DNA of 62,654 nt, counting the filler, from Phoronis australis (lineage: Eukaryota > Animalia > Phoronida): NCBI GenBank assembly GCA_002633005.1. It is 4 parts of 4 records of this genome, joined end to end, with 100 filler letters (N's around TTAATTAATTAA, not from the genome) between each part and the next. Parts side by side here need not be neighbours in the genome. Positions count along the whole stretch, not along the records: positions 33,452 to 58,991 come from NMRA01000423.1; 3 more parts are not named here. One strand, given 5' to 3'. How positions within the stretch are numbered: position 1 is the first letter of the stretch; each line of letters begins with the position of its first letter. Under the pieces are notes generated by a model that worked only from the letters and a program-made list of their open reading frames with translations, was not told where the DNA came from and made no database searches. Below, one piece after another: positions 1-58,049 of this stretch. The translations under genes were made by a program, and so were the position numbers.

Positions 1-3000
1 AAATGTCTACGCTGTATCGATATGGGTGTGAAGCGTCTTCGTGTTGGTGACTATTGTTTTGATGAAAAACAGAAGTATCTGTTCATGATGTATCTTATTA
101 TGAGACATATCATACATGAACACGGGAAAAGTTAACACATCTCATCAAACAAGAAAAAACCAACAGGAGAACAACATTAACGTGTTACTTAATAAGGTCA
201 GTCCAAGTGGTTTGTATAATTCATACATATCAGTCTTTAAATAAACATCAGTAAGCAACATACTGTAAGAAAATGGATTACTGCATAACGGTAGATTTGT
301 TACTAGTCTCAGTCCAGAAATTCAGCATATTGGTCTATCATAATAATTTTACCTCTCACTACTCGACGTCTAAACACGCCATAGTCCATTCTCCTTAATC
401 CTGTCTTCAGATTTGGAAAGAAGTTTTTCATTGATTTTTGTTCAAAATGAAAGTTAACAGAGATAACTATTGTAGGAAATGTTGATGTTCCTCGAGTCCA
501 CCATTGGTCATTTTGACCATGTCCTCTTTGTATGTTCTCATTTGACCTTGCTGGTTACTGTGTTATGCATTTCATTTTGTGAAACTTTTTCCAGGTCAAA
601 AATATGGAAAACTCAATAGCTACTGAGTCTAGTCTTAAGAATAACAAACACTTACTCATAACAAGTCATAAATTGTCACTGACAGGAGACCATAATTGTA
701 AAGGTGAGTCTTTTATTAAACTTAACTTATTCAAAGGCAATCGACGTTCATGATATCACGATTCGTTGAAAATTGTTCCTTAAAAACAGGGTCTCTACAT
801 GTATTGGCTAATTTCAGAAAAGTTTATAAGTTACTATTGTTATATGCAGGCTACAATGTAAGGGACAAGAAAAAAGTATTGTATAACTGCAGTTACGAGC
901 AACCTTGCATTACCAAATGAATATTATGACCGATTACTTTTGTTTATGGATTAAGAAACAGCAATGGTGCCAGTGATAAACCTTTTTCCGTTCGTGGCAA
1001 AATTCGTTTTTGAACATTTTTGACACTTTGACCAATAGAAAATCTGCTAGTGGAAATTAGGTTTTTACTTGTTATAACGGCAAAGATAAGTCAACACCAG
1101 GAGAATAAAAGATAAATAATATGCCCTGTTGCACACAGTGTATCCGGGTATTCCTGTCATGTATTGATCCATGACATCTACATGTATTATAATGGGAAGA
1201 CATGTACTTCCCGTGGCTGGCCTTGGAAACAAGAATACAATATCTCTAGTTCTCTCAATTAAAACAACAGGATTATTTCAATTTAAAATTCATTAACATT
1301 TCAATTCAACAGCTTAAAAATCCCACATTAATGTAACTCAACATATCAATTTAAAAAGAGCACTCCTAGGGGCAGGGTAAGCACACCTTATATTGACAAT
1401 CAATTGATAAATGATGTGAACAGATCAGTGTTCATGAACACCTGGCCAGTTTGGAGGTAGTATATCTCTCCAGTTTATAAACCAATCCAGTTCGAGGACT
1501 CCCTCAAAATATCCCGAATTACATAATTAAACTTCCGTCAAAGCAAAGTAACTTGGCCAATGCTTACAGCTCATTTAACCCTTTTTATGTCACATTACAT
1601 TTTGTACAAAAAGATACAGACATTAATGATCCCTTTCTTCGTGTGCCTTCCATCAAGTCGATATTGGGGATTTGATACGATAATTTCACCTACACCCTAT
1701 CTGATGTGAAATCAAATTTGCACCAAAAGACCACGTGGAATTATGCAATGATTTTGCATTAAGCTAATCAATCTCCCATATTCTTTATATAATGGGTACT
1801 TTATGTCACCATTCGGCTATAATAATCTAAATGTCAAAGCTGACACTTGTTTATTCACTCCTTATCTTTCATAACGCTATTAGAATTACCACCAGGGAAA
1901 TAAATTCATTTCCACATTGTTCTATTGAATACGGGTACTATATGCAGAACGTCATTCATAGCGCACCTGAAGGAAGTGCCTCAGGTCGGCGGTTGCAGCC
2001 TTGTGCAGGCCTAAATTGGTACATCGTCCCAAATTGTCACAGCTTCAAAACTGTGACAAATGGGGTCAGCGCTGTGGGCACAAAAAGTCGCAATTTGCCC
2101 AAATTGCCACAATTTTTGTGTGAGTCAGTTTGGGCCTGTACCACAGAAGAGCCCCAAGTTGTCAGACGAACGTGATTTGTGTCTGGATTACTCTAGCCAC
2201 GGAGTGAAAATTTTCACCAAAGAACGTCCCACAGTATAACAATACGAAAGTTTGAGCTCCACGGTAAGAACAATTTAATAATTCGAGAAGTAGTTGGATA
2301 CCAGGTTAACGTCATGAAACGCATACATGTCTTTCATTTTACAATCCAGATATTGTACAAGATATAGACAGCATTTGGAACACTGTCTGAATTTACTGTA
2401 AAAACCCGAACGAATGCGCCTTATTTTGGAGATCCGCATGGCCTAGTAAGTAGGAAATTTGAGTGGTAAAAAATCTTTAAAAACTCGATAGGTTTCACAC
2501 GTTCACTTCACGTGATCCCAATTTACAGATACTCTGCCTGCGTTCAAAATTCTTCTCAGGGACGGTGATCATGAGTTACGACCGTTTTCACCACGATTCC
2601 GCCTAACTTCTCGCCTGGCTGGGATTGGTGCGTGATGGAGAGATGAGTTCAGAAATATACTGATGCAAGGCAAAACATTTTTTAACGGACCATAAAATGG
2701 GCGCCTGTAAAAAAGTATAGCTTCCGAGATCTGAGCGTGGACACATGAGTGTGAGTGTCCTGCAGAATCTGCCACCCTTCTTAGATGATTACATGTATAC
2801 CGAATGAGGCCGTATGCTCTGGTGACAACTGCACCATTTCGAACATTTCCGACATCCATGAACGTTTCGCGGTGTCCTTCAATTTGTTCTTTAATCAGAT
2901 CAACCAAACAAAACACCCCTTCAGACGGGTTAAGACTGTTGCCGAAAAGTCGTTCGTTGTCGTTTCTGTTTAGGAGGAAGTGCTCAAAGCCATTTTTGGG

Positions 3001-7269: not shown

Positions 7270-7270
7270 A

Positions 7271-16056: not shown

Positions 16057-16312
16057 CTACATAAACTGGAATTCCAAGCGGATTCCACCGCAACCGTCGT
16101 TGATCACGATTTTGGTGTTGGGGTCTGGGTTAGGAGAGTGACTGAATGGATGCCAACACTTCTTACTCGTCATCTGCTGTAGGTATTTATTGTAGAGCAG
16201 GATCCATTTTGCCTCTTTGCGGTCGGAATACACGCAGTCGTTATCGTACAGCACAATCTCCGTGGTGTTGGGAGGCTGGGCCTGTCCGCCCTTCACTTGA
16301 ATGCATTTTCCA
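16057..16312 (-). CDS. Last exon: beta-trefoil lectin subdomains beta and gamma
   Basis: Acceptor ttcgttttag|T GGA AAA TGC. Encodes (S)GKCIQVKGGQAQPPNTTEIVLYDNDC...SKKCWHPFSHSPNPDPNTKIVINDGC...LEFQFM*, resembling the mytilectin repeat SGKxxHPxGG...P.N.T..VL. Confidence 0.88.
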
Positions 16313-16929
16313 CTAAAACGAAAGACGTTCTGTTGTATTCACTACGTGAAGGACGCTGATACATGTACTGAGCGCAACAGCCTAATTTCAAATCCCGACT
16401 CATCACCTGTCTTAGCCAGACCACAATCGGGGTACAGTTCAATAACATTAGGACCTCGTAAGGACCTCGTAAGGACCTCGTAAGGACCTCGTAAGGACCT
16501 CGCTTAAAAGAATTCGCGAGATTACCCGAGATTACACGAAATATTGCCGAGCATCTTAAAGGCACGTGATTTTGGCTACATTATTCTCTCCGCAAGTAAG
16601 CTACTGAATTCTACACGGGTATCAGAGACAAACCTATCATAGTGCTCATTGATAATGTCAACACCCATCGCTTAGAAGTGTACAAAAATGCTGCTACTAT
16701 CAAGTAAGGAAAAGTACCTTGCCGACGAAGAGAGAAAAGTTACTGTCGTAAAACATGCCGTAGAGGGCATATTCATATTTAATTGAAATAATTCTAGTTT
16801 ACCTTAAACAGTGATATACTCTTGGTTACAACAATGCCTTCCGCACATCAATCTGTGCACATAAATACCATAAGTTACAAAATTTAATGAGCTGTTAGGC
16901 TGGCATATATATGTGTGTGTGTGTGGTGT

Positions 16930-31900: not shown

Positions 31901-34900
31901 CATGCCCGTCTTCGCATAAGACAACAGAAAATGCTGTCGATATGTCATTTATTAAGGCTACATGGACATATTTTCTTCGAAAATAACGACCAGCTCCTTG
32001 CGTCAGGCTAGATCCGCCAGCGCTATGATTGAGCGTGCGTGTACAGTCAAGCATCTATACGGAAACCGAAGTTGCTATTGGCAATATTTTTTGAAATTTT
32101 TGGGCATGGCCATCCTTGGTGCTAACAGTATGGGTTAAGACTGATATGAATGTTTAATGAAACGTTAAAAGAGAAAAAACCTCTTAACTTGATGCATACT
32201 TATTTCCAGTGACACACAGGGCCTCGCTGGTTCATGAAGTCGTCTTTATAGCAACCGCTATTGTGGAGATTGGTATGTGCCAAATTTGAGGCGAAATCAT
32301 TAACATTATCTGTCAATTGTAGCTTCGAGTTTGATGCGCATTTTAAAAGTCATTTGTTGTATAATGTCATCAAATTGTATGCACAGTTTTGTAAAACTAG
32401 GGATAGATTGAACTTGCAATTTGCCATGTTTAGCTGACTGAAAAAATCGAATTTGGCCCTTACTCTCTGAAGTCTGTCTCACAACATTTCGTAGCGTGGT
32501 ATGTTTTCCTTCCCTTACCAAATCAAGTCACAAGAATGTGAACGTGCAACAATTGCAAATTCGCAATTTTAGGTTTGGGAAAACCTGATAACATTTTAAG
32601 CATTCTTTGAAACGTTTCTCAGTGGTTTCGATGCTCTTGGGAAGGGAATAGAATCCCACCGACACCGATTGTATGAGAGTAAAAACCGATCCTCGCATTT
32701 ATCCAGCTAATCAGGGTGAAACCTTGCTTGAAATAGTTCTTTCGAACGGCGTTGAAACTAATATTTGATGACGCGAAACTACATGTAGCAATCTGACGCA
32801 TTTTGTTCCGAAAGTCAAAGTTTTCGTTGTTTTCCAAATCAAGTACTGTTCCAGTTGGATTACAAATTACTTTACACAAAGCGAAATCTCAAAACTAAAA
32901 AATAACGTAATGAGGAATCTTTAGGACATGTACACAGATTCTGCAATTGCTACCGCAAGCATTATATTTGCCATCGGCATTATCGTTTTGATTAGCAGTA
33001 GCTGAGTGTCAGAAGAAGTGGAAAATAGGCTCGTCATTGGTCTCTAGGTGGCATTGAAGTATAAGATGATCACATATTTAGAGACGTGGTGGGTTGTTTG
33101 CAGACGTTTCGACCTGGTCCGCCACGTCTTTGTCATTGAATGAGCGAAAGGCGGGAAATCCCTTATTCATTGATAAAGACCTGTTGGACCACGTCGAAAC
33201 GTCTACTAACAACCTACCACGTCTCTAAGGAAGTGATCATCTTATACTACAATCTTTGAATCGTTTGGACATGCACATTATTTTGTTTCTCATTTTATAA
33301 CAGCGAATGTTACGACTGTGTCCATCGCAAGCATACCAACAGCAACGAATCNNNNNNNNNNNNNNNNNNNNNNNNNNNNNNNNNNNNNNNNNNNNTTAAT
33401 TAATTAANNNNNNNNNNNNNNNNNNNNNNNNNNNNNNNNNNNNNNNNNNNNAGTGCGGTACTATTGTTCGTTTAAAATCAGTTTTGGCCGGTACCTCGAA
33501 AATCTAGTCTAGCTCAAATTTTTGATGGCATACCATGGTTGAGATTTTTGGGGGTTTCTGCCGGGCACAACCCAGAGTGTATTTTGTCTGTCATAGGGGT
33601 TTTAGTGATCTGTGACATGTATTGAATCACATGGAATTGGTTTTGTGTGGTACCTCGAATGTATGTGCTAGCTCATTTTTGGGGGGTCCTTTTTTGGCTT
33701 CTGCCGGACCCATTCCAGAGTGCAATTTGTCTGTCATGGGTCATTCGGTGTTCAGTGCGATATTATTGTTCGTTTTAAATCAGTTTTGGTTGGTACCTCG
33801 AATATCTAGTCTAGCTCATTTTTTGGGGTCTTTGTAAGGCCCCCAGGGGTCACACCCAGAGTGCAGACAACGGCAGACGTCCATTTCTGTACATACTGAG
33901 GTGGACTTTAAATGCTCCCGTGGTCAGATGTTGGTACCTCGTTCATCTATGCTAAGTGCTCTGGGCTGCCGGTCTATTATCCCGGGCAGTGACTCGGAAA
34001 CTGATCAGACATCACGAACATAAACCAGCCAAAGTTCAGTGGAAACTAAACTTCCAGTCAAGAAAATACTATACTAGTGAGCCAAAGTAATGTGCACGTG
34101 ATTATGTTGGTGAATTAGCCACGAAACTGCAAATCTACTTACTCGTCGGGGCCGCGAATTCACTCGGGTTCCGCTTTGGCCTCAGCACCGTCAGGGCAGA
34201 AGTTGTACATTGACAATCATTATTTGAGTAATGATGATGTAAATAAAGATTCCCCTAACACCTGGCCGTGGGATGGAAATCCAGTTGTTTCACAACAGTT
34301 TCTGCCAGCAAACACTAAATTAGCATTAGCTCACACGGCCTCGGTATCCCGTCAATTAGTTTTATTGCACCTAAAGCCGGTAACGCAGTGATTTATTCAT
34401 TGCTGGCTTCTCAAATCATTTGCACTCACAAACACTTCAAAGGCATTACAAATTGCATCTAATGAGATAGACTTTGTTTCAGTTTTATATAAGTACTGGT
34501 TAGGGTGAGAATAATTCATGAAACAGAACGCTCAGTAATAAACGCCAACATGGCAACTCGCAATCCCGACTTAGGACGAGCTAGATCTCATCAGTCCCGA
34601 CTTCGCAGGTGGATCGCTAAGTTTTACAGACTATCAATTCGAACAGGAATACAGTGATGAAGAAATACTAGGGAGGCGCCGTGAACAAGCTCAGACAACG
34701 AAATGTATGTAGTTATTTGGTAAGCCAGCATTCGTCAGGCACTGTCGACGTCTGCAGGCCACGGACACGGAGATGTTTCACGACCTCATACTTGCTACTT
34801 ACAGCGTACATTTCATTCTTCACTACAAAGAGCCACTTCCTAAGCATTTGGACTCTCGAGGAAGTAAAAAAAAACGATATACCCGGTTTGTTCGCAGTTT

Positions 34901-36874
34901 CATAGTTCATACAATCGGGAACGATGCACTGCAACATAGCGGCATTCACCCTGCATATGAACCACTGACGTCGCTAGCGTCGTTTCTAACCTTCCTCACA
35001 GGTTAACACGAAACCTCTTGGCAAGGTACGGTCGACCGTATCCGAGGCGATGTGGATATGGAGCGATTAAGACGGCAAAAAAGACTAATTAAATCGGGTG
35101 GCATTCTCCTTTAAAGCCTGCGAGCTTGCGCTCCGAACACTCTCGAATAAAATTCTACATTTAGAAACATGTAACGTTCAGGGGTCTTCAAAATGGTCAA
35201 TGTGCAAAACATATGCCTTTCCCGACACGAGCAAATGTTTCTTTGTCACAATCACAATGTATAGTACATGCAGTCAGTCTTGCAGTTGAAGTTATACAAA
35301 CCTGAGAGATGAGTAATGACATATCCATTAAGAACCCGTCACCCTGTTTCCCTTTTATAATGTGACAAAATCCACACATAAGCGAATGTGTGTGTAGGTG
35401 TGTGTGTGTGTGTGTATGTGTGTGTTTGTGCGTGCGTGCGTACGTGCGTCGCGTTAGTTTGTCTATGTGTGCGTGTGCACACGTACACAGACAGACTCAT
35501 TTATTTAGCAATAATAGAAAGACGCGGGAGCAGGCATTTTCAAGGACATTTCTGGTGACATTTTACATTTGTGCCTTTCAGATATTTTTGCATGCGCGAC
35601 ACTTTTTGCTCCCATTGCAAACCCTCGGCAGCTACATGTATTACAAGGGCGAACCCGAATACTGAAACTTACCTCGGAGCTTCTGCTATAAAGCTTCCCA
35701 TATCTGCACAGAATGTTCCCACAATAAACGCTTAAACTTCCAAATCGATAGATTCTGTCAGTTTCTGCCAAAATTGAACGAGTTTCTTGCCATAAAAATT
35801 TGCCAGTTTAATACAAAAACTGTTTTACTAAAGATGCATGTTTTCCGCTTTTTAGCCGTCATGTCATTTTAAAGATATGCGCCTATCAGGTAGGCCTACT
35901 CGGTATTCTAAAAGCCAAATACACCTCCGAAGTATACCAGTCTGTCTTTTACCCAAAGTAAGCAATTGAGACATTTTGGTACCGGAAAATACCAAGAGAA
36001 CGACACTGTATTACTAACCGATGTTAGGGATTTGTAAACATCATGGCTACAAGTCAAATCTATAGCAACTTTGGTCAGACCTCAAAAGTCAAGAACCAAG
36101 ACAAAGTACTAAAGCCAGACCTTCTACTGTCCGAGTTCAACCTGAATGGCGAATCAGTATATGAGACACTTTTTTGCATTGCATGGCAACTTACTTCACT
36201 CCCGTCCAAATACAATTTGCCCATGTCGCAAACCAATTTCCCACATTTTGTTAGGTATGAGTCTTGAAACGGGTGCATGGTTCTGCCTTCGTAATGACAC
36301 GGCGGTGATGGCGTTGGTGGCGATGGTGAAATGGTTGGCTTGCAATCGTAATTAGATGGAACCTGAATGAAATAACCAAACAGTCGCGCTGAAATCCTGT
36401 ATAACACACAAGGTTTGAGATCATCGTGGGAAAACTGAAAATGACACATTTTACATGCGTGCGAAAATCATGGACAGTGAAACGGGTTAAGTGTAACTCG
36501 ATCCTCGAATATAATGTAGTTTTACTAGTTAACAAGCCTGTTTTTATATACGTGTTAGAATGGAGGCCACTAAATATGGTTTGAGATAACCTTAAACGTA
36601 TAGGAGTTTCAATACAGGAAAGTAAAAACGCTCTTTCGAATCAATTTGCTTGTTCACTCACATAATTCTGGCAACAATCACTAGGGAAATAATGAATGCA
36701 TGCTGGAAAAGAAATGGAAAAATCAGACAAAATTTGAGAGTATCCATGCCGCAGTTCTTCTTCTTCTTCGTTTTCTTCTTTTTGGTTTAAGTGACCACAC
36801 CCTCTCCAGAGTAAATTGTCACTGTGTATCAACGAATATCAACAAAAGCGAGAACAACTATAACGGGTTTAAAA

Positions 36875-36929
<55 letters not shown>

Positions 36930-39717
36930 CATAGTGGACGTCATTTCAGAGGTCGTTGAACATAGCTAGATCGTTAACAGATAAGGCAGTCAGTAACCCG
37001 GTTCCCCAAATGGAGGCACTCCACTATGTTACTTCAGAAAGGCAGATAGCTTGATAACATGATAACAGAGATATCAAGAGATGGGCCTGATGTAATGCTG
37101 CCCGGCAAGCTATTCCAGTCCGCGGCTGTTCTAGGAAAGAATGTCTTTTTCCTGTTATCTGTCCCATTTATTGGAATACTATAATTGGATGACCTTCTGG
37201 TACAGATGCCCGAGGCAGCAAGATCTACGATAGGGGCAACATCAGAGTTGATGATCACCGATTTCTTATTATATTTGTAAAACATTTTCAGTCGACCGAT
37301 TTTGCGTCTGTTGCTGATAGTTAACATGGTCATTGGGCATCGCAAGTTTCGGCTCAATTTTTACGGGTGGAAAGGTGCACAAATATAAATTTACTTGATG
37401 GTGGTGGTGATGGACGGTACGTTAAAATCATCAGGGTACATTGAATGTGTAAACCGTATCGCCGATTTTAATTATCAACATTGTCGCCATGTTCCTATTA
37501 GAGGTCTTTAGATTCGACGTCGATATTGCAGTCGTTAGGCAGGAATGTTATTCATGCTTCACTTCTGTGAATTAAGCAGCACCGTGCCTTTGGTCAAAAA
37601 CAAGTATTGATTTAGGTCAATACCGTTATGGATTGATCTCACATTGTTCTATAGTCAGATTAAGTGTGCTTTCGGAGTTGGAAAAAATAGACAGTTCGTC
37701 AATTCTTCAGAACAATCTCATAACATTCGAGGTGCCTTACACGTTTGATCTAACTGAACCGACGGAGTCATGACACAATTGCAGGTATTGAAACGACTAC
37801 ATGTAAATGAAGCTTGCTGACTTTGTAGACCCGTGCAAGATCACGCAAGACTTCGCCGTCTAAAAGTTTCGCTTGATCGTTCTAGCTTTACGTGGGAATT
37901 CTTGCGTTCCCAGATTAAAGATGGATAATTTTTAATGTACGTCTAAGGCCTAATGATTCCTGTCACTGAGGTTTTAGTCCAGTCATTTTTAAATTGTCAG
38001 GGGTTCAATAAATGTTGTCTCCAAAAGCCTACCTCTACACCGTTAAGAAACAGCTTGCTCATGTTGCACACTAGTTGTCCACATCCAGTCAACAGGGTAT
38101 CACGGAATGGGTGTAATCTTTTGTCGTTATAGTAACACGGTTCTGGTAACGGCGGTAGAGTTGGAGCGCACTCGTAGTCGTCCGGAACCTGTATGAGGAA
38201 ACAAAACACATCAGTTGAATCCATAACAACGGGCAACTTTGAAACACAGTGGTTGTTATTGCATTGTGGGTACTTTATTCAGATTATCACATGTCATGTT
38301 CATAACTTTTTGCACACGCCATCTACATGTACAGTACATGGACGTAGGGATTCAAATGTGTGTTTTCTGCTCATCGTTGTATGGGTTAGTCATGGAAATT
38401 AGATATTGCTGAGGATGTTTAGAAATTCTAATGTAAAGCTACTGATATCCTCTTCGTTTTTCAAAATCGTTGAACTTGTTGTATATAAGTGGTTGCCTTC
38501 AGGAAACTTTAAATAGTAATAACAACGCATTACGTCCACTCACTACAGTACATTCTTCAAAAGAGTGAACATTTCAAAATAAACGCTTAAACTTCCACAG
38601 ATCGATCGATTCTGTCAGATTCTTCCAAAATTGAACTAGTTTCTTACCATAACAGTTTGGCAGTTTAATACAAAAACTGTTTTAATAAAGAAGCATTTTT
38701 TCCGCTTTTTAGCCGTCATGTCATTCTAAAGATGCGCCTATCAGGTAGGCCTACTCGGTATTCTAAAAGCCAAATACACCTCAGTCTGTCTTTTACCCAA
38801 AGTAAGCAATTGAGACATTTTGATACCGGAAAATACCAAGAGAACGACATTGTATTATTAACCGATGTTAGGGATTTGTAAACATTATGGCTACAAGTCA
38901 AATGTATAGCAACCTGAGTAAGACTTCAGAAGTCAAGAACCGAAGACAAAGTACTGAAGCCAGACCTTCTACTGTCCGAGTTAAACCTGAATGGCGAATC
39001 AGTATACGAGACACTTTTTTGCATTGCATGGCAACTTACTTCACTCCCGTCCAAATACAATTTGCCCATGTCGCAAACCAATTTCCCACAACTTGTTAGG
39101 TATGAGTCTTGAAACGGGTGCATGGTTCTGCCTTCGTAATGACACGGCGGTGATGGCGTTGGTGGCGATGGTGAAATGGTTGGCTTGCAATCGTAATTAG
39201 ATGGAACCTGAATGAAATAACCAAACAGTCGCGCTGAAATCCTGTATAACACACAAGGTTTGAGATCATCGTGGGAAAACTGAAAATGACACATTTTACA
39301 TGCGTGCGAAAATCATGGACAGTGAAACGGGTTAAGTGTAACTCGATCCTCGAATATAATGTAGTTTTACTAGTTAACAAGCCTGTTTTTTATATACGTG
39401 TTAGAATGGAGGCCACTAAATATGGTTTGAGATAACCTTAAACGCATAGGAGTTTCAATACAGGAAAGTAAAAACGATTTTTCGAATCGATTTGCTTGTT
39501 CACTCAAATAATTCTGGGAACAATCACTAGGGAAATAATGAATGCATGCTGGAAAAGAAATGGAAAAATAAGACAAAATTTGAGAGGATCCATGCCGCAG
39601 TTCTTCTTCTTCGTTTTCTTCTTTCTGGTTTAAGTGACCACACCCTCTCCAGAGTAAAATGTCGGTGTGTATCAACGAAGATCAACAAAAGCGAGAACAA
39701 CTATAACAGGTTTAAAA

Positions 39718-39764
<47 letters not shown>

Positions 39765-42619
39765 GTGGACGTCACTTCAGAGGAGATAATGCAGTCAGTA
39801 ACCCGGTTCCCCAGATGGAGGCAATCCACTATTCTACTTCAGAAAGGCAGATAGCTTGATAACAGAGATATCAAGAGATGGGCCTGATGTAATGCTGCCC
39901 GGCAAGCTATTCTAGTCCGCGGCTGTTCTAGGAAAGAATGTGTTTTTTCCTGTAATCAGTCCCATTTATTGGAATGCTATGATTGGATGACCTTCTGGTA
40001 CAGATGCCCGAGACAGCAAGATCTACGATAGGGGCAACATCAGAATTGATGATCACCGATTTCTTATTATATTTGTAAAACATTTTCAGCCGACCGATTT
40101 TACGTGTATTACTTAGTTAAAATAGTTAACATGGTCATTAGGTATCGCAAGTTTCGGCTCAATTTTTATCCGTCTGTGTGTGTAGTCCATTCAATCTTCA
40201 GTGTCTCCATGCAGCCGGCAAATATCAAGTCCAAAATTTGACATTAAACAAGAATTTCTCATAATTGAGCGCAACAACCTAATTTGTATCAATTTAGATC
40301 GAGTAGTTCTACTCCACAACGACACGTACGGTTGCGTTTCCTGACACCTGACGGCAGACGGAGGTGTTGAAATTATCCAATGACGTCATCGATTTCACAC
40401 GCAGTCTGTTCAGCAGTTCACAACACGGGTTACTGGTGTTAGCTTATCGCTTGAAGTCATCGTTTAACACCAATAAATCATCACATCAAACTTTGATGTA
40501 AAACCCTTAAAATACACCGAGTTCTTATAAGAACGTGTTGCTTTATTTCGCTCTTACGGATTTATTGGTATTTGGACACACGGTAGCCTACAAAGTTCGG
40601 CAGGCCAATAAGGTCCGTAGCAGGAGTTTGGGGTCTGTTCGGAGACAATTTCGAAGTATTTACCGAGAGATAGAGACAGGAGAACCTAGATCTGTGTTGT
40701 TTAGACTTGTGATTTTTGAGTTTTAAACACAAAACGATTGTTATCCTGCATGGCCAGAGGCTCGGAGCCAGATCAGGCTCGTCGCGGCCGGCCGGATTGA
40801 CTCGTTATCCCGGGCAGTGACTCGGAAACTGATCAGACATCACGAACATAAACCAGCCAAAGTTCAGTGGAAACTAAAGTTCCAGTCAAGAAAATACTAT
40901 ACTAGTGAGCCAAAGTAATGTGCACGTGATTATGTTGGTGAATTAGCCACGAAACTGCAAATCTACTTACTCGTCCGGGGCCGCGAATTCACTCGGGTTC
41001 CGCTTTGGCCTCAGCACCGTCAGGGCAGAAGTTGTACATTGACAAACATTATTTGAGTAATGTAAATGTAAATAAAGATTCCCCTAACACCTGGCCGTGG
41101 GATGGAAATCGAGTTGTTTCACAACAGTTTCTGCCAGCAAACACTAAATTAGCATTAGCTCACACGGCCTCGGTGTCCCGTCAATTACTTTTATTGCACC
41201 TAAAGCCGGTAACGCAGTGATTTGTTCATTGCTGGCTTCTCAAATCATTTGCACTCACAAACACTCCAAAGGCATTACAAATTGCATCTAATGAGATAGA
41301 CTTTGTTTCAGTTTTATATAAGTATTGGTTAGGGTGAGAATAATTCATGAAACAGAACGCTCAGTAATAAACGCCAACATGGCAACTCGCAATCCCGACT
41401 TAGGACGAGCTAGATCTCATCAGTCCCGACTTCGCAGGTGGATCGCTAAGTTTTAAAGGCTATCAATTCGAACAGGAATACAGTGATGAAGAAATACTAG
41501 GGAGGCGCCGTGAACAAGCTCAGACAACGAAACCTATGTAGTTATTTGGTAAGCCGGCAGTCGTCAGGCACTGTCGACGTCTGCAGGCCACAGACACGGA
41601 GATGTTTCACGACCTCATACTTGCTATATACAGCATACACTTCATTCTTCACTACAAAGAGCCACTTCCTAAGCATTTGGACTCTCGAGGAAGTAAAAAA
41701 AAAACGATATACCCGGTTTCTTCGCAGTTTCATAGTTCATACAATCGGGAACGATGCACTGCAACATAGCGGCATTCACCCTGCATATGAACCACTGACG
41801 TCGCTAGCGTCGTTTCTCACCTTCCTCACAGGTTAACACGACTCCTCTTGGCAAGGTACGGTCGACCGTATGCGAGGCGATGTGGATATGGAGCGATTAA
41901 GACGGCAAAAAAAAAATTAAATCGGCTGGCATTCTCCTTTAAAGCCTGCGAGTTCGCGCTCCGAACACTTCTCGAATAAAATTCTACATTTAGAAACATG
42001 TAACGTTCAGGGGTCTTCAAAATGGTCAATGTGCAAAACATATACCTTTCCCGACACGAGCAATGTATAGTACATGCAGTCAGTCTTACAGTTGAAGTTA
42101 TACAAACCTGAGAGATGAGTAATGACATATCCATTAAGAACCCGTCACCCTGTTTCCCTTTTGTAACGTGACACACCCACGAATGTGTGTGTGTGTGTGT
42201 GTGTGTGTGTGCCTGCGTGCGTGCGTGCGTCGCGTTAGTTTGTCTATGTGTGCGTGTGCACACGTACACAGACAGACTCATTAGCAATAATAGAAAGACG
42301 CGGGAGCAGGCATTTTCAAGGACATTTCTGGTGACATTTTACATTTGTGCCTTTCAGATATTTTTGCATGCGCGACACTTTTTGCTCCCATTGCAAACCC
42401 TCGGCAGCTACATGTATTACAAGGGCGAACCCGAATACTGAAACTTACCTCGAAGCTTCCGCTATAAAGCTTCCCATATCTGCACAGAATGTTCCCACAA
42501 GGTGTGTCTATAGTCGCGGCGTGTTGAATCGTCTTGCCAAGATAGTTACATGGGGGAGGCGCGGGTGTGATGGCACCCGAGCACGTTGTGACGAGGACAG
42601 CAAAAATCACCAGCCTCAT
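16057..42619 (-). CDS. Spliced gene for a secreted protein with four 4-Cys modules plus a C-terminal mytilectin/ricin-B-like beta-trefoil lectin (~372 aa). Exons 42619-42449, 39207-39040, 38188-38033, 36362-36195, 19765-19566, 16312-16057
   Basis: All introns are GT-AG with compatible phases (0,0,0,0,2). The joined frame is open from ATG to TAG. Further exons could hide in the two gaps, so the 36195-to-19765 link is inferred. Confidence 0.72.
16449..16502. repeat. 11-bp minisatellite (taaggacctcg), about 5 copies
   Basis: Directly visible tandem array. Confidence 0.95.
16911..16983. repeat. (GT)n microsatellite
   Basis: Directly visible. Confidence 0.97.
17400..17800 (-). mobile_element. 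Penelope-like element remnant (GIY-YIG endonuclease)
   Basis: A minus frame reads ..NVYQ...SKYVGTTACTLSRRLSMH*RNGSIEDHF, the typical PLE GIY-YIG pattern YxGxTxxxLxxRLxxH, with stops. Confidence 0.7.
18020..18310 (+). mobile_element. Remnant of a SWIM zinc-finger transposon accessory gene (YqaJ-associated type)
   Basis: GDIGSCNFKYMSGLGKTSNCIGAVLWKIECSVRMG..SCTDISTKWN resembles the decayed consensus CxCxAGLGExCxHxxAxLxxIE...SCTxxxxxW. Confidence 0.6.
18780..19090 (+). mobile_element. Tc1/mariner-superfamily transposase C-terminal remnant
   Basis: Frameshifted NAASS..NITQAHLEKDTPN-FIKKDN*PLFSPDYSPTYYAIWESLEE...KKRLRLVV, a decayed WPxxSPDLNPxDYxxW motif. Confidence 0.75.
19566..19765 (-). CDS. 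Penultimate exon: last Cys of a module plus beta-trefoil subdomain alpha
   Basis: Acceptor tctcttctccttcctatgctacag|TTT (phase 0). Encodes FHFTDLCIP...RIRHSGGLCVQPLGGQTYPNTPLVLGSC...GHIIHIA. Donor AG|gtaagg (phase 2) joins 16312 to give IIHIAS-GKC. Confidence 0.88.
22850..23160 (-). mobile_element. Possible second Penelope-like GIY-YIG remnant
   Basis: Frameshifted pieces YIDRET..., AQHLDKFN..NSAKHITIIIL resemble the PLE endonuclease; heavily decayed. Confidence 0.4.
25219..25318. other. Assembly gap with TTAATTAATTAA linker
   Basis: 100-nt N run containing a six-frame stop linker. Confidence 0.97.
25319..25943. repeat. End of a satellite-bearing dispersed element (alternating ~143/160-bp units), copy 1
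   Basis: Internal repeats of gtacctcgaa...agctca...tctgccgg...ccagagtg. 25419-25943 is nearly identical to 33452-33976. Confidence 0.85.
26443..26626. mobile_element. MITE with imperfect inverted repeats (TACCG...CGGTA termini)
   Basis: taccgggaatttccgtagataagcccatgggcg..ttcggaaaatt is mirrored by aattttccgaataaacgcccatggg...gcttacctacggaaaaccccggta. Confidence 0.75.
30900..31730. repeat. Degenerate dispersed/tandem motif ctaca(c/t)gtgaccgtctaccattttgttaa
   Basis: Several copies at 30900-30935, 31110-31345 and 31690-31730. Confidence 0.6.
33054..33252. repeat. ~200-bp palindrome, possibly a Penelope pLTR-type inverted repeat with degenerate hammerhead cores
   Basis: gtataagatgatcac...gacgtttcgac is mirrored by gtcgaaacgtc...gtgatcatcttatac. 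Confidence 0.7.
33352..33451. other. Assembly gap with TTAATTAATTAA linker
   Basis: 100-nt N run containing the linker. Confidence 0.97.
33452..33976. repeat. End of the satellite-bearing element, copy 2
   Basis: Nearly identical to 25419-25943 and ends at the same gccggtcta. Confidence 0.85.
33977..35724. repeat. Segmental duplicate A (copy of 40805-42500), including the 3' half of exon 1 at 35673-35723
   Basis: Collinear high similarity from ttatcccgggcag to gttcccacaa. Contains CGNILCRYGKLYSRSSE|gtaagt with no phase-0 acceptor. Confidence 0.92.
34545..35114 (-). mobile_element. Kolobok-like DNA transposon remnant (THAP start plus a convergent accessory-gene start); second copy at about 41375-41942
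   Basis: Minus strand MLQCIVPDCMNY...ISFF...RKWLFVVKNE...YEVVKH (THAP). Plus strand YQFEQEYSDEE. Terminus reads TTAAAGGAGAATGCC on the minus strand. Confidence 0.6.
36195..36362 (-). CDS. Module exon 4 (duplicate of exon 2)
   Basis: ttcattcag|VPSNYDCKPT...CHYEGRTMHPFQDSYLTKCGKLVCDMGKLYLDGSE|gtaagt; 168 bp, phase 0-0. Confidence 0.8.
36877..36929. repeat. (AT)n microsatellite (duplicate at about 39719-39760)
   Basis: Directly visible. Confidence 0.95.
37040..37320 (-). mobile_element. CR1/L2-type LINE 3' ORF2 fragment (duplicate at about 39850-40110)
   Basis: RRKIGRLKMFYK...KKTFFPRTAADWNSLP matches the typical LINE C-terminal FFPRTxxxWNSLP. Confidence 0.8.
38033..38188 (-). CDS. Module exon 3
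   Basis: cctcatacag|VPDDYECAPTLPPLPEPCYYNDKRLHPFRDTLLTGCGQLVCNMSKLFLNGVE|gtaggc; 156 bp, phase 0-0. Confidence 0.88.
39040..39207 (-). CDS. Module exon 2
   Basis: ttcattcag|VPSNYDCKPTISPSPPTPSPPCHYEGRTMHPFQDSYLTSCGKLVCDMGKLYLDGSE|gtaagt; 168 bp, phase 0-0. Confidence 0.88.
42449..42619 (-). CDS. First coding exon: signal peptide plus first Cys module
   Basis: MRLVIFAVLVTTCSG-AITPAPPPCNYLGKTIQHAATIDTPCGNILCRYGKLYSGSFE|gtaagt. Basic N-terminus, hydrophobic core and small-residue cleavage site; phase 0. Confidence 0.88.
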
Positions 42620-44275
42620 ACTATCTTAAGTCGTGATAAATTTCAAAAATATAGTCGACAGTTTCCTTAGTGCTAAGGCAGCACGGTTAAATAGTAACCA
42701 GGTCCTGTGGATTACTGTTTACATAGACGACCTCCTCAGCTGTTCAGTCTCACACTTGTGTTTGTGTGTATAATGAGGATTAGCCTGACGTTTACAACGT
42801 GTAGTCTTTGAATTTACCGGCAATAAACCAACAATGGCATGGAAAAGGAAGACCCGAAAACTAAACAAAGGCACATGCAAAAACGAGTCTAAACTAAATA
42901 ATCCATTCGATCAAATTATTCCAGTGAAGGTGAAGCCAAGGATATCTGTCGAGAACGAATACTTAAAAAGCAAATTTTCTCACGAGTATTAGTAAAACTT
43001 AAACTTGGATTATTTCGTATACCGTTCAAGTATGCATCTTATTTTAACGCCGCTCGCTAATTCAGTATATTATAACTGATTTGATTAGCAATTTATTTTG
43101 GTCATTCCAACGACATTTCGGAACTCTGATCACTGCATAGTGACTCACAAAAAATGTTAGCTGTGGAATAAATGATTCCGTGGGGGTATTGCTGCAGTCT
43201 AATCATCACGTGATCATATTAGGGGAGAAATCTCATTTTATCTGTTTGGCTACCCTCAATTATTGAGCAAGATGTGGCGCTGCACTCTGCCTCTTTAGCC
43301 AATCACAAGCTCCGATTTGGACAAGGCGCAGATGAGGACTACCTCCAAATGTGTTCCTTACTGAGGTCAACATAATGTCAAAAGGCCAGATGTGTTATTT
43401 TTTCGCAAATAGCATGGATAGAAGGTGAGAAGTGATGAGTACGATGTGTCATTACTTTGGAGTTTTATGACGTAATTATGCGGTTCAGCCTAGTCTCTGA
43501 TTTCAGTGTCACAAGACATGTTAAAAGTAGGATGAGCAAAGTAATATCCAAATTCTGTCATTGCTATAAATTTTGTCTTTTTATGCAATATTTACACGGT
43601 CAATGATATTTATCAACACACTTAAAGATGAAAAAATGTAATTTACAATCAAATAAATCTTTAGCTTTTCTTTTTCCCATATCCATGACAAACAATGCAA
43701 GCGTCAGTGACCATGGGTGGCGCAGCTCTGTAAAAGTGAGGGGCTATATTTCCGCCCCCCCAACCCCCTACATTTATGGGGCACTGCCCGTAATTTACAG
43801 ATACTCTCCACAACTGAAGGTCGTTTATAAACCTTGGAGCACAATTTTGCCCAAATAATGCAAGTTAAAATCGAACCTGTTGTAGTTGGTTAAATGAAGC
43901 AAAATCCAGTACCAGCTCATAACCAAAACAGAAAAAAGTCATTTAATGAAAGTAGTTGGCAGTGTGCGCAGAAATGTCAACATTTTCCACACAAATGTCT
44001 TGCTCTCGACGCCATCTTAATTCCTAGTAAAAGAGTGGTAAGTTGATGTGATTTTTGAAAAGATGTCAAAAGTTAACCTAATGACGCATTTATTACTTGA
44101 ATGGCATTGGCTGATTCAGAAACTAGAGCAGCCTCAATAACTTTTTCTAGCGGAACACCTCAAAGTCTCAATTTTGGAGGTGTTCTTTTATTGGCAAATT
44201 TCTTTAATAATTTTGGATCGCTAATGCTTGTGCAGGAAACGTGAACAGAACAGAGGATGATTATTTCATACTGCA

Positions 44276-48230: not shown

Positions 48231-51200
48231 CTGCATGTTCAACAAAAGAGATCACAAAATGCGATATGATTTCCATTTAAAGGCATACATGTACAGTATC
48301 TTAAGATTAACGATTATTACTTGGATATAAAGTTTCTCACCAGAAAACAAACTTACATTTTTACCAGCGCGACAACTTATGAGAAAAGTAATGTGAACTT
48401 TAAGTAGAAGTTCTACGTGTGTGAGTACATCATTACTAGAGAGACAACTCAAGCAGACGACATATTAGCTGAAGCGTGCGTCAGGGGTCTAAGTGTTTTT
48501 GTAGTTCACTCCTAGACCATTGTAAACACAACGAAGATGTTTGTCCATTACACTTGTTTGCCTCAGAAGTTATAAGATTATCCTAATTATTTGTCTGGAT
48601 ATCCTATCCACTGCAGGACCGAACACACGTTTGGTGCTATTTCAAGTTTCATAAACGTGCATACTTGCAAAATTTGGAAAATTCCAGTAGTATACTGATT
48701 AAGAATATGCATCACAAATTGCACAGACTTTGTAAAAGAGGTCCCTGGTATGCGCAGTCTCTAGTGAGTATTAATCTAAGCTTACTGCAGTCATATTCTG
48801 TTTTGAAATTAATATCTGAGCAATGATGCAAAGGAAAACCCTTTTGTGGCCCTTAAACAGGAAAGCCTTCGATTAAAATTGCCTTAGGTACACTAAAATG
48901 TTAGTTCCACCGTCGACGTTTATCAAAGCAACTTAAATTGCTGAATGAGCTAGATCATACACGTATGAACAAAAAATGTTCTTTTCGTTTTCAGATGGAA
49001 AGAGTGTACAGTAGCGGATCTAGAATGTCGTAAAGAGGTGAACATTATATTGGTTGCTCCATGAGATATGGTGAAATATTTTGGACAAGGCAATGCAGTG
49101 GGCCTAGACAGCATAACCTGACGGTCTAACATTTAAGCAAAAACATTGATGTGGTCTATTGATTAAACAGATCCATTGAACTTTAGTTACTACACTAATG
49201 ATATGATAATTTGGGGCGACGAAAAGTTGGAGGGTACCTTTACTTTGTTGTTCTGCTCCATTCCTCTCAGCTTTAGTTTCAGCGATAGGCAAACCGTTCA
49301 GTGGCGCAGTTTTGCAATTGTAGGATTTACCACTACATCCCTGTGTTTGTGTTTCCTCCATTTGGCATTCCTTCCCAGAGTAACTGCTGCATACCTCGCA
49401 AAAGCGCGTTCTATGGTGAAAACAGTCTTTTGGGCATGTGTACATATCGATCCAATCGGACCATGTTTTACAAAGATTGTTAACACTTGACGTGTTGCAC
49501 GGTACTATTTCAGTTGAATTTCCCTCGCACATGGAGCCACCAAAAGAGGGAGTCGGGTTGGAACAACTTCGAAATCTTTTCCGGAAATTGTTGTTTTGCA
49601 ATTCTGAGCACTGTTCCCATTCCGACCATTCTGTCCAATTTCCGTCAACGGAACAGAAAAAGTCGTTACATGATCGAATTTCAACTGGTTTACCCGTACA
49701 ATTGTCTCCCCCAAATAACGGTTCCGGATTGTCGCAGAGACGCGTTCGGTCCTGATGGCCGCCACCGCAGTCATGGGTGCAGTCGCTCCACATGCTCCAC
49801 AAGGACCAACGACCGTTTACGGGACACGAAGTCAGACGACATCTTCGAGACTCGAATGAAATACCCAAACAAAACTGCCCTCCGAATAACGGTGGTGGAT
49901 CAGTACAATTTCGAGAACGAATCTGTTCACCTGCATTACAAGACCTTGAACACATGCCCCAGCTGCTCCACTGTGACCAAAGACCATCGAGAGGACAGTG
50001 TACGTCATTGCATTTCCTGGACTCATGGCTTGCACCTGAGCAATTCTGACCGCCGTCGACAGGAGAAGGATTGTTGCAGTTCCGATCACGCATCTGTTTC
50101 CCTCCACCGCAAGAACTGGAACACGCTTCCCACGTACTCCATGGAGACCATCTGCCGTGGACTGGGCATTCCTTGTGGTTGCAGCTTTGTTCTTCAAACT
50201 CTTTACCACTGCAGTATTGACCGCCGAAAGACGGCTTCGGATTGTCGCAAGCCCTTACTCTAACCTGCTGACCTCGTCCACATGACGTAGAACACATCGA
50301 CCAGCTACTCCACACGGACCATTGTCCGTTTATTAGACAATTTGACGACTTGTAACAGGGAAGAGTCTGTGAACTGTCTCCAGAACAATTAAGACCCCCA
50401 AATGATGGTACAGGATTATCACATTTTCGACTTCTAATTCTAATTGTGTCACTGCATGTGACGGGGCAGTCAGACCATTCGGTCCAAGGAGACCAGCTAC
50501 CGTCCACTGAACAGTTATGTGCATTGCATTCGCGTATTTCAAATGAATCCTCTTGACAGTATTTTCCGCCAAGTGCAGGAGGTGGCTCGGTGCAGTTTCT
50601 TAACCTCGATTGGTGACCGCCACCACATAGCTTTGTACATGTGGACCAATGGCCCCAGGACGACCAATCACCATTTACAGGACAGCTTATATTATTACAT
50701 ATGGCATATTGGTTTCTTTCTCCAGGGCAATCTTTACCATCGAATTCTGGTGCAGGACTCGTGCATGACCGTGAACGGTAATGGCTTCCTCCACCACATG
50801 ACCGTGAACACGTGGACCAAACGGACCACAAGCTCCAAACGCCGTGAATGGGACAAGAATGTGTATTACACGAACGAAATGCATAAGAGGAGTTGGTACA
50901 AAATTTTCCCCCTCGCTGTGGGCCCGGATTCGTGCACTCGCGCGTCTTTCTTTGCTCCCCTCCGCCACAGCTTCGTGAACATCTGGTCCATATCGTCCAC
51001 GGTGACCACGCTCCGTCGATTGGGCACTCAAGTGCATTACAAGACTCAGCCTGCGTGCTTGTCTCGGAACAGTTGCTACCACCATGTGCTGGTGCCGGGT
51101 TTGTGCACGTTCTGGAACGGTTACGCAGGCCTGAGTCACACGATTGGGTACATTCACTCCAAACTGACCAAGGTGACCATTCTCCGTTCACGGGGCAGCT

Positions 51201-57200: not shown

Positions 57201-57564
57201 GAAACTTGGAATCCACCCTTATTGCCATCCAAACCTACTGATAGTATTGTCTATGCAACAAGCAACACTACCGTGTGGTTGCAAACATACAAGGTACATG
57301 AACATGTAAATCAGCAATCGAAAATTAACTAAAAACCTGAATCCATCTTATTTAAATCGATCGATTTTAAAAAGATGTTGGTTAAAAAGTAACCTGGGCA
57401 TCTCCTGCTAGTACAGTTTTGATTTTTCGAGCCACTTCCGGAACACGAAGTGCCGCCATGAGCAGGTGAAGGATTGGTACACGTCCTTGTCGCCCTCTGT
57501 GTCCCGCCTCCGCAACTTGCAGTACAAGGTCCCCATCTACTCCAGGCTGACCAGCTACCATTCA
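48131..57564 (-). CDS. Type-I transmembrane protein with at least 24 thrombospondin type-1 repeats, 5'-incomplete. Exons 57564-57394, 56736-56566, 53793-53623, 53056-49238, 48230-48131
   Basis: WxxWxxW-CSxTCGxG-RxRxC repeats; phase-1 GT-AG introns join in frame; a hydrophobic TM exon follows. No signal-peptide exon was identified and the cytoplasmic tail is unresolved. Confidence 0.85.
49238..53056 (-). CDS. Giant 3819-bp exon with 21 TSRs plus one degenerate TSR
   Basis: Acceptor ttttttccag|CC TGG; donor AAAG|gtaccc; repeats counted in the 1309-aa ORF. Confidence 0.95.
53623..53793 (-). CDS. Single-TSR exon (171 bp, phase 1-1)
   Basis: attacag|(V)[20 protein letters not shown]...RAKGCQ|gtatgt. 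Confidence 0.92.
54363..54448 (-). pseudogene. Decayed TSR pseudo-exon
   Basis: atttacag|(V)[27 protein letters not shown]; truncated, with a stop and no donor. Confidence 0.75.
56566..56736 (-). CDS. Single-TSR exon (171 bp, phase 1-1)
   Basis: cttacag|(V)[20 protein letters not shown]...NSRRCP|gttagt. Confidence 0.9.
57394..57564 (-). CDS. Single-TSR exon (171 bp, phase 1-1), duplicate with a weaker donor
   Basis: cttacag|(V)[20 protein letters not shown]...TSRRCP|gttact. Confidence 0.78.
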
Positions 57565-58049
57565 CTGTAAGTATAACGTGTTCATTAATGACTAAACAAA
57601 ACAAGGCAAAAGCATATAAAAATATCTTAACATGAAGGTTTTGATGTAAAGTACGTACAAGCATTGTTGATTAGATTGCGCCAAATCCATGTTGTTTGGA
57701 AAGGTTTTGCTGGATTTCCCTAGTGTATAAGCAATTCCAGAGTCAGTTGATTGTTATTGATTTTGGTTAGTTTGGGATGCCTGTTTAGTAAGTACGTTGA
57801 TTCGCACGAGTTTTGGACAAATAAACGGCAAATTAATTATGCATTGCCTCAGACTGAGTTCAAAAGCTTTTGAACAATTGACATATCAGCAGTCAAAATG
57901 AGGGCTTGAGGAATTTTAAACATAGTGTTGATCACTGGTATATCCAGTTTGTGAGGGTATCAATTTATGACCACATCTTTACGAATAGACTATAAGAATA
58001 TATATTTCAAAACAATTTCTAGAAAAGCACATCTACATGGCACAACTAT

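What the first reader, a model, noticed from the sequence alone, without database searches (positions are those of the whole stretch)
36195..42619. Unrecognised ~40-aa 4-Cys module whose exon boundary cuts through the domain
Seen: consensus C-x-Y-x-[GD]-[KR]-x-[IML]-...-C-G-x-[IL]-x-C-x-x-[GS]-K-L-[YF]-x4-E | x6-C, separated by P/T/S-rich linkers. The phase-0 intron lies inside the module, so each folded unit is chimeric between two neighbouring exons. Duplicating or skipping any exon keeps both the frame and four Cys per module. Inference: the start resembles the VWC N-terminal subdomain or a fibronectin type I module (CxYxG...), but the CxxCxC core is replaced by CGxLxC, so this may be a new or strongly derived domain.
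Basis: partly seen in the sequence, partly recalled or inferred. Interest (0 to 1): 0.7.

Follow-up and report, generated by a model that had tools for sequence, protein, structure and literature searches.

The report
Four-cysteine VWC-like beads spanning exon junctions
An invertebrate gene, spliced and transcribed, encodes a likely secreted string of small four-cysteine modules that are predicted to be slimmed-down von Willebrand/fibronectin-type beta-domains missing one disulfide, each likely completed by a short tail from the next exon: a new variant of a known fold rather than a new kind of domain.

Summary
In detail: four minus-strand exons (E1-E4) repeat the motif, all introns are phase 0, and stranded RNA reads splice E2>E3 and E3>E2/E4. 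Reads also show exons missing from this assembly, including a last mini-exon with one Cys and a stop, which favours a module closed by the next exon. The simplest model is 8 exons, 7 modules, 391 aa. E2 and E4 are recent near-identical copies. Pfam, PDB-sequence and protein searches found no relative. AlphaFold models of one exon give a hairpin plus three-stranded sheet; all top structural neighbours are VWF/mucin E, VWC subdomain 1, fibronectin type I or microseminoprotein modules (weak scores: E>0.2, Z<=4.1). The register puts two Cys on VWF C829-C851 and a Leu on C858, so the C3-C5 bridge is lost. Verdict: strongly derived VWC-SD1/E-type module, not a new fold, not a member of canonical VWC or pacifastin. 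No exon skipping appears in the joints shown. Function is inferred: multivalent extracellular binder; the codon before Cys2 varies (P/S/G/K/L). The scan's earlier notes hold no look-alike.

The parts
42449..42619 (-). E1 coding part: likely signal peptide (codons 1-15/16, includes Cys13), Pro-rich spacer, head of module 1 (C24, C41, C46)
   Evidence: mean hydropathy 3.7 over residues 3-10; in-frame stop upstream; no SignalP run; RNA contig spans 42698-42449 and leaves the window exactly at the donor (table 8)
39040..39207 (-). E2: tail Cys of module 1, 14-aa Pro-rich linker, head of module 2
   Evidence: E2>E3 joint 40/42/9 reads and one X5 contig
38033..38188 (-). E3 (copy a): tail Cys of module 2, 10-aa linker, head of module 3
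   Evidence: folded
36195..36362 (-). E4: recent copy of E2 (166 of 168 nt identical); tail Cys of module 3, head of module 4
   Evidence: E3>E4 joint and 19 X6 reads leaving its donor into an exon not in the window
36246..36248 (-). Variable codon just before Cys2 (Lys in E4; Leu in an X5 contig; Ser in E2 at 39091-39093; Gly in E3 at 38084-38086, Lys in the E3 variant; Pro in E1)
38575..40168 (.). Duplicated block B containing E2 and flanking intron
   Evidence: 91% identity to 35720-37363; introns 94-96%, exon 98.8%
35720..37363 (.). Duplicated block B' containing E4
   Evidence: DNA contigs of X1 and X2 run from the E3-side intron 30 letters into B' without differences, one letter short of the tool's bridging rule (records 2 and 11)
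33977..35724 (-). Partial copy of E1 (from Cys41 codon) plus intron 1; the assembly jumps here instead of continuing to the remaining exons; no usable phase-0 acceptor
   Evidence: 94% to 40805-42500; 2-nt overlap at the junction; acceptors tested; RNA reads laid there carry E1's base (13 of 13 in X6, 17 of 18 in X7)
39208..42448 (-). Intron 1 (phase 0), holds a repeated element at about 40270-42100

Best explanation
The exons belong to one transcribed gene for a likely secreted protein made of probably seven small beta-modules on Pro-rich spacers; each module is predicted to be a von Willebrand E / VWC subdomain-1-type fold that has lost the C3-C5 disulfide, likely closes its second disulfide with a Cys supplied by the next exon, and would act as a multivalent extracellular binder. 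Shown: exon structure, splicing, extra exons in RNA, replacement of the C3 and C5 slots by Ile/Leu and Leu/Ser. Predicted: hairpin plus three-stranded sheet, C1-C4 bridge. Inferred: C2-C6 bridge across the junction; order E1-E2-E3a-E4-Ex-E2''-E3b-terminal (391 aa, 28 mature Cys); origin by fusing the terminal mini-exon of one gene copy to the post-signal part of E1 of the next, then duplicating a two-exon block; function as an avidity binder (surface recognition or matrix/mucus partner) with the turn residue before Cys2 tuning specificity.
For: Cys bookkeeping is even only if modules span junctions: E1 gives 3 mature Cys, internal exons 4, and the last exon reads (V)PADWVCNL-stop with one Cys (16 reads in X7; X5 contig; translated). 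All tails keep Pro and an aromatic residue two before the Cys (E2, E3, terminal exon, and the extra exon starting IKHPEHFCRP, 19 reads in X6), which E1 lacks before C13. C4-to-tail-Cys gap is 17 in 3 of 3 junctions in the window while the tail-Cys-to-C1 linker varies 10-14. AlphaFold: strands 18-20, 23-25, 31-34, 37-42, 45-48 (pLDDT 77; core 89), the SD1 layout described in PMC10326224 and PMC2683937. Foldseek: first 12 rows shown are VWF, mucin, NELL, collagen 2A vWC or CCN3 vWC chains. VIA over 48,161 chains: top 23 rows for the core are all FnI/VWC/E/microseminoprotein chains, rmsd 1.2-2.1 A over 33-36 residues. Range 1..35 to VWF 827..860 (29% identity) puts model C3/C26 on C829/C851, a stated E' disulfide, and Leu33 on C858 (PMC10196764). 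A second E3 version makes up 33 of 61, 31 of 59 and 8 of 11 reads and is in DNA contigs too.
Against: No structural match is significant: Foldseek 0 of 65 and 0 of 36 matches at E<=0.001; VIA best Z 3.6-4.1, none >=5, in the range the tool calls a common arrangement. No sequence link to any family. E1's C13 sits 10 residues before C1 exactly as in E3, which fits an exon-contained module. The C4-C6 gap (17) is longer than in the pacifastin signature (11-15). The 8-exon order is pieced together from short reads and two contigs; the E1>E2 joint is not among the rows shown. Nothing here tests function, ligand or tissue.
Confidence: 0.62

Rival explanations
1. Multi-headed serine protease inhibitor: a pacifastin-related scaffold whose variable contact residue has moved to the Thr-X-Cys turn, so that neighbouring modules hit different proteases.
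For: Same Cys register as pacifastin C1, C2, C4, C6 (signature in PMC2689174). Thr two before Cys2 is invariant in 4 of 4 exons and the residue between is P, S, G, K or L; E2 and E4 differ only in that codon, 2 differences where intron divergence predicts about 7 (P=0.024), and two further double-base changes hit the same codon. Thr at P2 with Lys/Leu at P1 is typical of canonical inhibitors (recalled).
Against: The pacifastin reactive loop C5-x-P1-P1'-x-C6 and its C3-C5 brace (PMC13388995) are absent, Asn after Cys2 is Gly in 4 of 4, there are no dibasic sites in the linkers, and the variable residue lies in a two-residue turn in the model. Adjacent double-base changes can be single mutational events or gene conversion.
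Confidence: 0.15
2. The exon itself is the folded unit: its first Cys bonds back to Cys2 of the same exon through the Pro-rich stretch, so the intron lies between domains.
For: Every exon in the window, E1 included, has four Cys with the same order and E1's first-Cys-to-C1 gap equals E3's (10).
Against: E1's C13 falls in the likely signal peptide; the terminal exon's lone conserved Cys would be unpaired; the stretch between first Cys and C1 varies in length and is 40-50% Pro; residues 1-10 have the lowest confidence (pLDDT 59) and no strand in the exon model.
Confidence: 0.1
3. The fold match is convergence or AlphaFold bias: any short Cys-rich sequence starting C-x-Y-x-G is modelled as SD1/FnI, and the module is an independent lineage-specific invention.
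For: All structural scores are weak and no sequence search links the module to a family.
Against: Three kept Cys, both lost Cys slots and the Gly after C4 fall in register with VWF E'; both members of one disulfide are lost together; the same model gave no comparable matches in the viral library (best prob 0.14).
Confidence: 0.08
4. The repeats are partly an assembly artefact (haplotypes stacked in tandem) and the extra exons belong to alleles or paralogues, so the real gene has fewer modules.
For: The assembly jumps at 35720-35724 into a partial E1 copy and has N gaps and a 99.8% duplicate nearby; DNA contigs show a further E1-like version with 26 differences and an E2-like version with 7.
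Against: RNA joins E3-type to E2-type exons and E2-type to E3-type exons, and single X5 contigs carry E4-type + about 159 nt + E2-type, and E2-type + E3 variant + terminal exon; the E3 variant is near half of the reads in 3 of 3 RNA samples.
Confidence: 0.05

Closest known systems
von Willebrand factor E' module (residues 828-863; PDB 2MHP, 6N29, 8D3C) and mucin MUC2/MUC5AC/MUC5B E modules
   Same: Stand-alone module of about 36-42 aa; predicted hairpin plus triple sheet; C1-C4 register (C829-C851); highest identity of all structural neighbours (29-33%).
   Different: Two disulfides instead of three (Leu on the C858 slot); last Cys about 6 residues further out and on the next exon; no TIL/VWD context; Pro-rich spacers.
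VWC subdomain 1 (collagen 2A 5NIR, CCN3 5NB8, NELL2)
   Same: Same predicted topology, rmsd 1.2-1.9 A over 32-36 residues.
   Different: No subdomain 2, no C2xxC3xC4 or C8C9xxC10 motif, 4 Cys instead of 10 (PMC2683937).
Fibronectin type I module (fibronectin, factor XII, tPA finger)
   Same: Four Cys, tandem arrays, top VIA rows (Z 3.6-4.0, rmsd 1.3-1.4 A).
   Different: Identity 8-17%; FnI keeps the strand-to-strand bridge that this module lost and lacks the C2-C6-type bridge (recalled pattern), so the two are complementary reductions.
Pacifastin-like domains, 'ancestral' class with N-terminal hairpin (PMC13388995); Trichoplax tapp-1 (PMC2689174)
   Same: Secreted tandem arrays; C1-C4 and C2-C6 register; Gly after C4; in tapp-1 each domain needs two neighbouring exons.
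   Different: Six-Cys scaffold, Asn after Cys2 and the C5-x-P1-P1'-x-C6 loop are not kept; in tapp-1 each exon holds half a domain (3 Cys), here each exon holds tail + linker + head.
SVWC/Vago family (PF15430) and beta-microseminoprotein
   Same: Secreted invertebrate VWC derivatives with fewer Cys (eight versus ten, PMC11515477); MSMB3 and PSP94 appear among the structural neighbours.
   Different: SVWC is a single eight-Cys domain with a second subdomain; this protein is a chain of four-Cys modules. That SVWC lost the same Cys pair is recalled, not checked.

Membership tests
Canonical VWC (Pfam PF00093) | Ten Cys with C2xxC3xC4 and C8C9xxC10 motifs (PMC2683937) | tested here: not met
   Four Cys per module; C3 slot is Ile/Leu in 4 of 4 exons; no CCxxC
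Canonical VWC (Pfam PF00093) | Subdomain 1 fold: two-stranded hairpin plus three-stranded sheet | tested here: met
   Met in predicted models only; neighbours 5NIR, 5NB8 at rmsd 1.2-1.9 A with non-significant scores
Canonical VWC (Pfam PF00093) | Match to the family HMM | tested here: inconclusive
   0 Pfam families for 4 exons and 4 exon cores at E<=10, but the last 7-8 residues of the module lie on the next exon and were not scanned with it
VWF/mucin E module | C1-C4 disulfide register (C829-C851 in VWF E') | tested here: met
   Aligned range 1..35 to 827..860 places model C3 and C26 on 829 and 851; bond itself not measured
VWF/mucin E module | Three disulfides (six Cys) | tested here: not met
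   C858 slot is Leu (Ser in E1) and the C3 slot Leu/Ile
VWF/mucin E module | C2-C6 disulfide | not testable with these tools
   The spliced module could not be folded; pairing is inferred from the Cys count and from the pacifastin connectivity 1-4, 2-6, 3-5
Pacifastin-like domain | C1-x9-12-C2-Asn-x-C3-x-C4-x2-3-Gly-x3-6-C5-Thr-x3-C6 | tested here: not met
   C1-C2 gap 16-17, Gly after C2 in 4 of 4, no C3, no C5; only the Gly after C4 is kept (3 of 4)
Pacifastin-like domain | Protease inhibition through P1 between C5 and C6 | not testable with these tools
   Needs an assay; the braced loop is absent by sequence
Fibronectin type I | Hairpin plus triple-sheet fold | tested here: met
   FnI chains are among the top VIA rows, Z up to 4.0; predicted model only
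Fibronectin type I | C-x-C core with the bridge between the last two strands (recalled) | tested here: not met
   No CxC in any exon head
SVWC (PF15430) | Single domain with eight Cys and four disulfides (PMC13115929, PMC11515477) | tested here: not met
   Four Cys per repeat, followed by a Pro-rich linker; no Pfam hit

The most novel reading that the evidence does not exclude
An undescribed family of secreted multi-headed recognition or protease-inhibitor proteins: a two-disulfide minimal VWC/pacifastin-type module whose variable site has moved to the Thr-X-Cys turn (P/S/G/K/L under diversifying selection), built from tail-linker-head exons so that every duplication or deletion re-pairs heads with different tails and individuals differ in module number and specificity.
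Probability: 0.2. Interest if true: 0.68.

Novelty: new variant of a known kind. Interest (0 to 1): 0.42.

Why it matters
It adds a third way of trimming the VWC subdomain-1 scaffold: E modules and pacifastins keep three bridges, fibronectin type I keeps one pair of two, and this module appears to keep the other pair, which makes it invisible to Pfam. It is a compact natural test of which disulfides this fold needs. The gene also shows, with first, internal and terminal exons all visible, how a repeat protein can grow from exons that are out of register with the domain. If the codon before Cys2 is a selected specificity site, the protein is a candidate variable recognition or inhibitor molecule in a poorly studied invertebrate. 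For annotation, it flags a place where the assembly lacks four transcribed exons.

Tried and rejected
Sequence searches gave nothing: Pfam on exons and cores; the search for homologous proteins with E3 (longer; 6 candidates, none E<=1), with alignment A1 (longer; 421 candidates, none E<=10; near length, no candidates); 1.84 billion representatives with E2 (3 hits, all long unrelated repeat proteins on inspection); PDB sequences (2 and 1 hits at E 0.17-8, spurious). These libraries may hold few invertebrate proteomes, so the blanks do not show the family is unique. The ESM Atlas gave no result and no whole genome is held. No RNA holder was listed by index; RNA runs came by species label. Viral fold library: nothing. 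Pacifastin structures are not among the listed fold neighbours, which is inconclusive. I first read the 'E4>E3 goes back' joints (12/11/1 reads) as further repeats; rejected, since their E4 side is at most 52 nt and never passes the diagnostic codon 51 nt from the exon end: they are ambiguous E2>E3 reads. 'E3>E2 goes back' cannot be told from E3>E4 (first 115 nt identical), so no circular RNA is needed. A lectin-like exon at 19765 was considered as the continuation; rejected because reads leave E3-type exons into a stop-containing mini-exon. The three extra exon ends are not in the window (0 matches each, up to 3 mismatches). The read-through of E1 into intron 1 gave no Pfam or PDB hit. Earlier scan notes: nothing near, by sequence, by words or in relatives. 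Literature searches for a four-Cys VWC-like secreted repeat found none; key structure papers were not held, so this is weak. No supplements were read.

Full report
Observation. The region holds four exons of a minus-strand gene: E1 42619-42449, E2 39207-39040, E3 38188-38033 and E4 36362-36195. Their lengths (171, 168, 156, 168 nt) are multiples of three, acceptors end in CAG and donors start GTAAGT or GTAGGC, so all introns are phase 0. Each exon ends with a head C1-x-Y-x14-15-C2-G-x-[IL]-x-C4-x-x-[GS]-K-L-[YF]-x4-E; E2-E4 begin with a tail VP-x-x-Y-x-C and a Pro-rich linker of 10-14 residues. The head pattern occurs 4 times in the window and never in 100 codon shuffles. E1 starts with a hydrophobic stretch (mean hydropathy 3.7, residues 3-10) after an in-frame stop; I read it as a signal peptide cleaved after residue 15 or 16, which removes Cys13 (inspection; no predictor was run). 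E2 and E4 are 166 of 168 nt identical and sit in a 1.6-kb duplicated block whose introns are 94-96% identical. Downstream of E4 the assembly jumps, with a 2-nt overlap, into a partial copy of E1 and intron 1 that has no usable acceptor.

Transcription and missing exons. Three stranded RNA runs of one study (X6-X8, about 18-19% of each read) and contigs of another study (X5, RNA is a guess) were laid on 35600-42800; X6, X7 and two DNA contig sets of one sample (X1, X2, possibly the window's source) on 35450-40170. Exon reads are all from the minus-strand transcript. Joints: E2>E3 40/42/9 reads; E3>E4 7/15/2 and E3>E2 12/16/2, which cannot be told apart because the first 115 nt of E2 and E4 are identical; E4>E3 12/11/1, whose E4 side never passes the diagnostic codon and which are therefore ambiguous E2>E3 reads. 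Only 15 of 39 and 15 of 25 joint rows were shown; E1>E2 is not among them, and no exon-skipping joint is either. An X5 contig leaves the window exactly at E1's donor. Loose ends (24 of 788 and 24 of 421 rows shown) reveal sequence absent from the window: after E4, an exon starting IKHPEHFCRP (19 reads, X6); before an E2-type exon, one ending FGKLYLADN(E) (21 reads, X7); after an E3-type exon, (V)PADWVCNL-stop (16 reads, X7; also an X5 contig). One X5 contig runs E4-type, about 159 unplaced letters, E2-type; another runs E2-type, an E3 variant with 12 differences, terminal exon. That E3 variant is 33 of 61, 31 of 59 and 8 of 11 reads at 38085, and DNA contigs hold both versions. The simplest linear reading, inferred, is E1-E2-E3a-E4-Ex-E2''-E3b-terminal: three two-exon blocks, 7 modules, 391 aa, 28 mature Cys. 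Further E1-like and E2-like DNA versions (26 and 7 differences) point to a divergent allele or paralogue.

Where the module boundaries lie. With the signal peptide removed, E1 gives three Cys, internal exons four and the last exon one, so all pair only if each head takes the next exon's tail Cys. The tails keep a Pro and an aromatic residue two before the Cys in all four tail types seen; the C4-to-tail gap is 17 at 3 of 3 junctions in the window, whereas the tail-to-C1 stretch varies in length and is Pro-rich. Against this, E1's Cys13 lies 10 residues before C1 as in E3. I read that as a trace of origin: the internal exons look like a terminal mini-exon fused to the post-signal part of E1 (E1 is 61-66% identical in DNA to E2 and E3 by local alignment). 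The pairing itself was not measured.

What the module is. Sequence searches found no relative. AlphaFold on E3 with a 4-row alignment gave strands 18-20, 23-25, 31-34, 37-42, 45-48 (best pLDDT 77; five models 77-56), and on the 37-residue core pLDDT 89 (89, 85, 64, 56, 55). This is the hairpin plus three-stranded sheet of VWC subdomain 1 (PMC10326224, passages; PMC2683937, passages). Foldseek found 65 matches at E<=10 and none at E<=0.001; the first 12 rows shown are VWF, MUC5AC, NELL, collagen 2A vWC and CCN3 vWC chains (prob 0.75-0.97; similar). VIA over 48,161 chains gave 42 with Z>=2 and none with Z>=5 for the core; the top 23 rows are all fibronectin type I, VWC, E or microseminoprotein chains (Z 2.5-4.1, rmsd 1.2-2.1 A; domain labels for some ranges are my knowledge of these entries), with complement control modules below (22 top rows). 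Scores this low prove little alone, but the neighbours are one superfamily and the Cys register fits: model 1..35 aligns to VWF 827..860, placing C3 and C26 on C829 and C851, a stated E' disulfide, and Leu33 on C858 (PMC10196764, passages). Positions 846, 849 and 863 as the remaining E' Cys are recalled. In the six-Cys signature with bridges 1-4, 2-6, 3-5 (PMC2689174, passages), the module keeps C1, C2, C4, C6 and has Ile/Leu at C3 and Leu/Ser at C5: one whole disulfide is replaced by hydrophobic residues, and the stretch before C6 is longer and carries the intron.

How it most likely works. Shown: a transcribed, spliced gene with repeated heads and tails. Predicted: small beta-modules. Inferred: a secreted chain of about seven two-disulfide beads on stiff Pro-rich spacers that binds an extracellular partner by avidity, as FnI arrays, VWC subdomain 1 (BMP binding) and SVWC proteins (bacterial binding, PMC11515477, passages) do. 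The residue before Cys2, in the turn between two strands of the model, is P, S, G, K in E1-E4, L in an X5 contig and K in E3b; E2 and E4 differ only there, with 2 differences against about 7 expected from their introns (P=0.024). This suggests a specificity site, but double-base changes and gene conversion could give the same picture and no selection test was possible. A protease inhibitor role is the main rival; the pacifastin reactive loop and its C3-C5 brace (PMC13388995, abstract, section 6 and passages) are absent.

Comparison and novelty. It works like a VWC-SD1/E/FnI module but fails the defining Cys patterns of canonical VWC, E modules, pacifastin, FnI and SVWC (PMC13115929, passages), so it should not be filed as a member of any. 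An intron inside a domain of this fold family is known: each of the 42 domains of Trichoplax tapp-1 needs two neighbouring exons (PMC2689174), though with half a domain per exon. I found no paper on a four-Cys form (listings only), but several key papers were not held and no supplements were read. Other notes on this genome call it a likely lophotrochozoan; I did not test that.

Verdict. Real feature, expressed, new variant of a known kind; fold assignment likely, cross-exon pairing likely, function untested. Interest 0.42.

Noticed in passing
window 42448-42281, minus strand (copy at about 35668-35505): Read-through of E1 into intron 1 stays open to 113 aa and gives C-N-x-C-x-C ten codons after the donor, the canonical core that the modules lack (about 2e-4 expected by chance near four donors, post hoc). 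RNA depth is 0 further on and Pfam/PDB give nothing. Relic of an ancestral six-Cys module or chance.
   Followed up: partly
E1-E4, second half of each head: The stretch after C4 (G-K-L-Y-x-x-G-x-E, 17 residues to the next Cys) resembles the start of a VWC module (recalled motif) and has the same length as the C1-C2 gap, so the module may have arisen by fusing two module starts.
   Followed up: no
window 49107-53066 minus; 53609-53872, 56564-56866, 57332-57670 minus: Upstream gene with 21 TSP1 repeats in one open frame plus single-TSP1 exons, two of them in an 840-bp tandem duplicate of 91% identity.
   Followed up: partly
window 19577-19765 and 16060-16338, minus strand: Two exon-like frames resembling beta-trefoil lectin repeats; the second has a weak Ricin_B_lectin match (E=0.025, below the curated cut-off). 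Probably a separate downstream gene.
   Followed up: partly
window about 40270-42100 (copy in 33977-35140): Repeated element in intron 1 with RNA depth of 100-400 on both strands and many variant letters, i.e. transcripts from copies elsewhere. No clear terminal inverted repeat found.
   Followed up: partly
window about 36550-36600 and 39386-39441: Short very high-copy repeat: summed DNA contig depth about 13,000 in X1 against 30-200 in flanks.
   Followed up: no
window 25419-25943 and 33452-33976: 525-bp block present twice at 99.8% identity, each beside an N gap; likely a scaffolding artefact.
   Followed up: no
window about 2570-7360, minus strand: Fragmented LTR-retrotransposon-like element with zinc knuckle and reverse transcriptase matches.
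   Followed up: no
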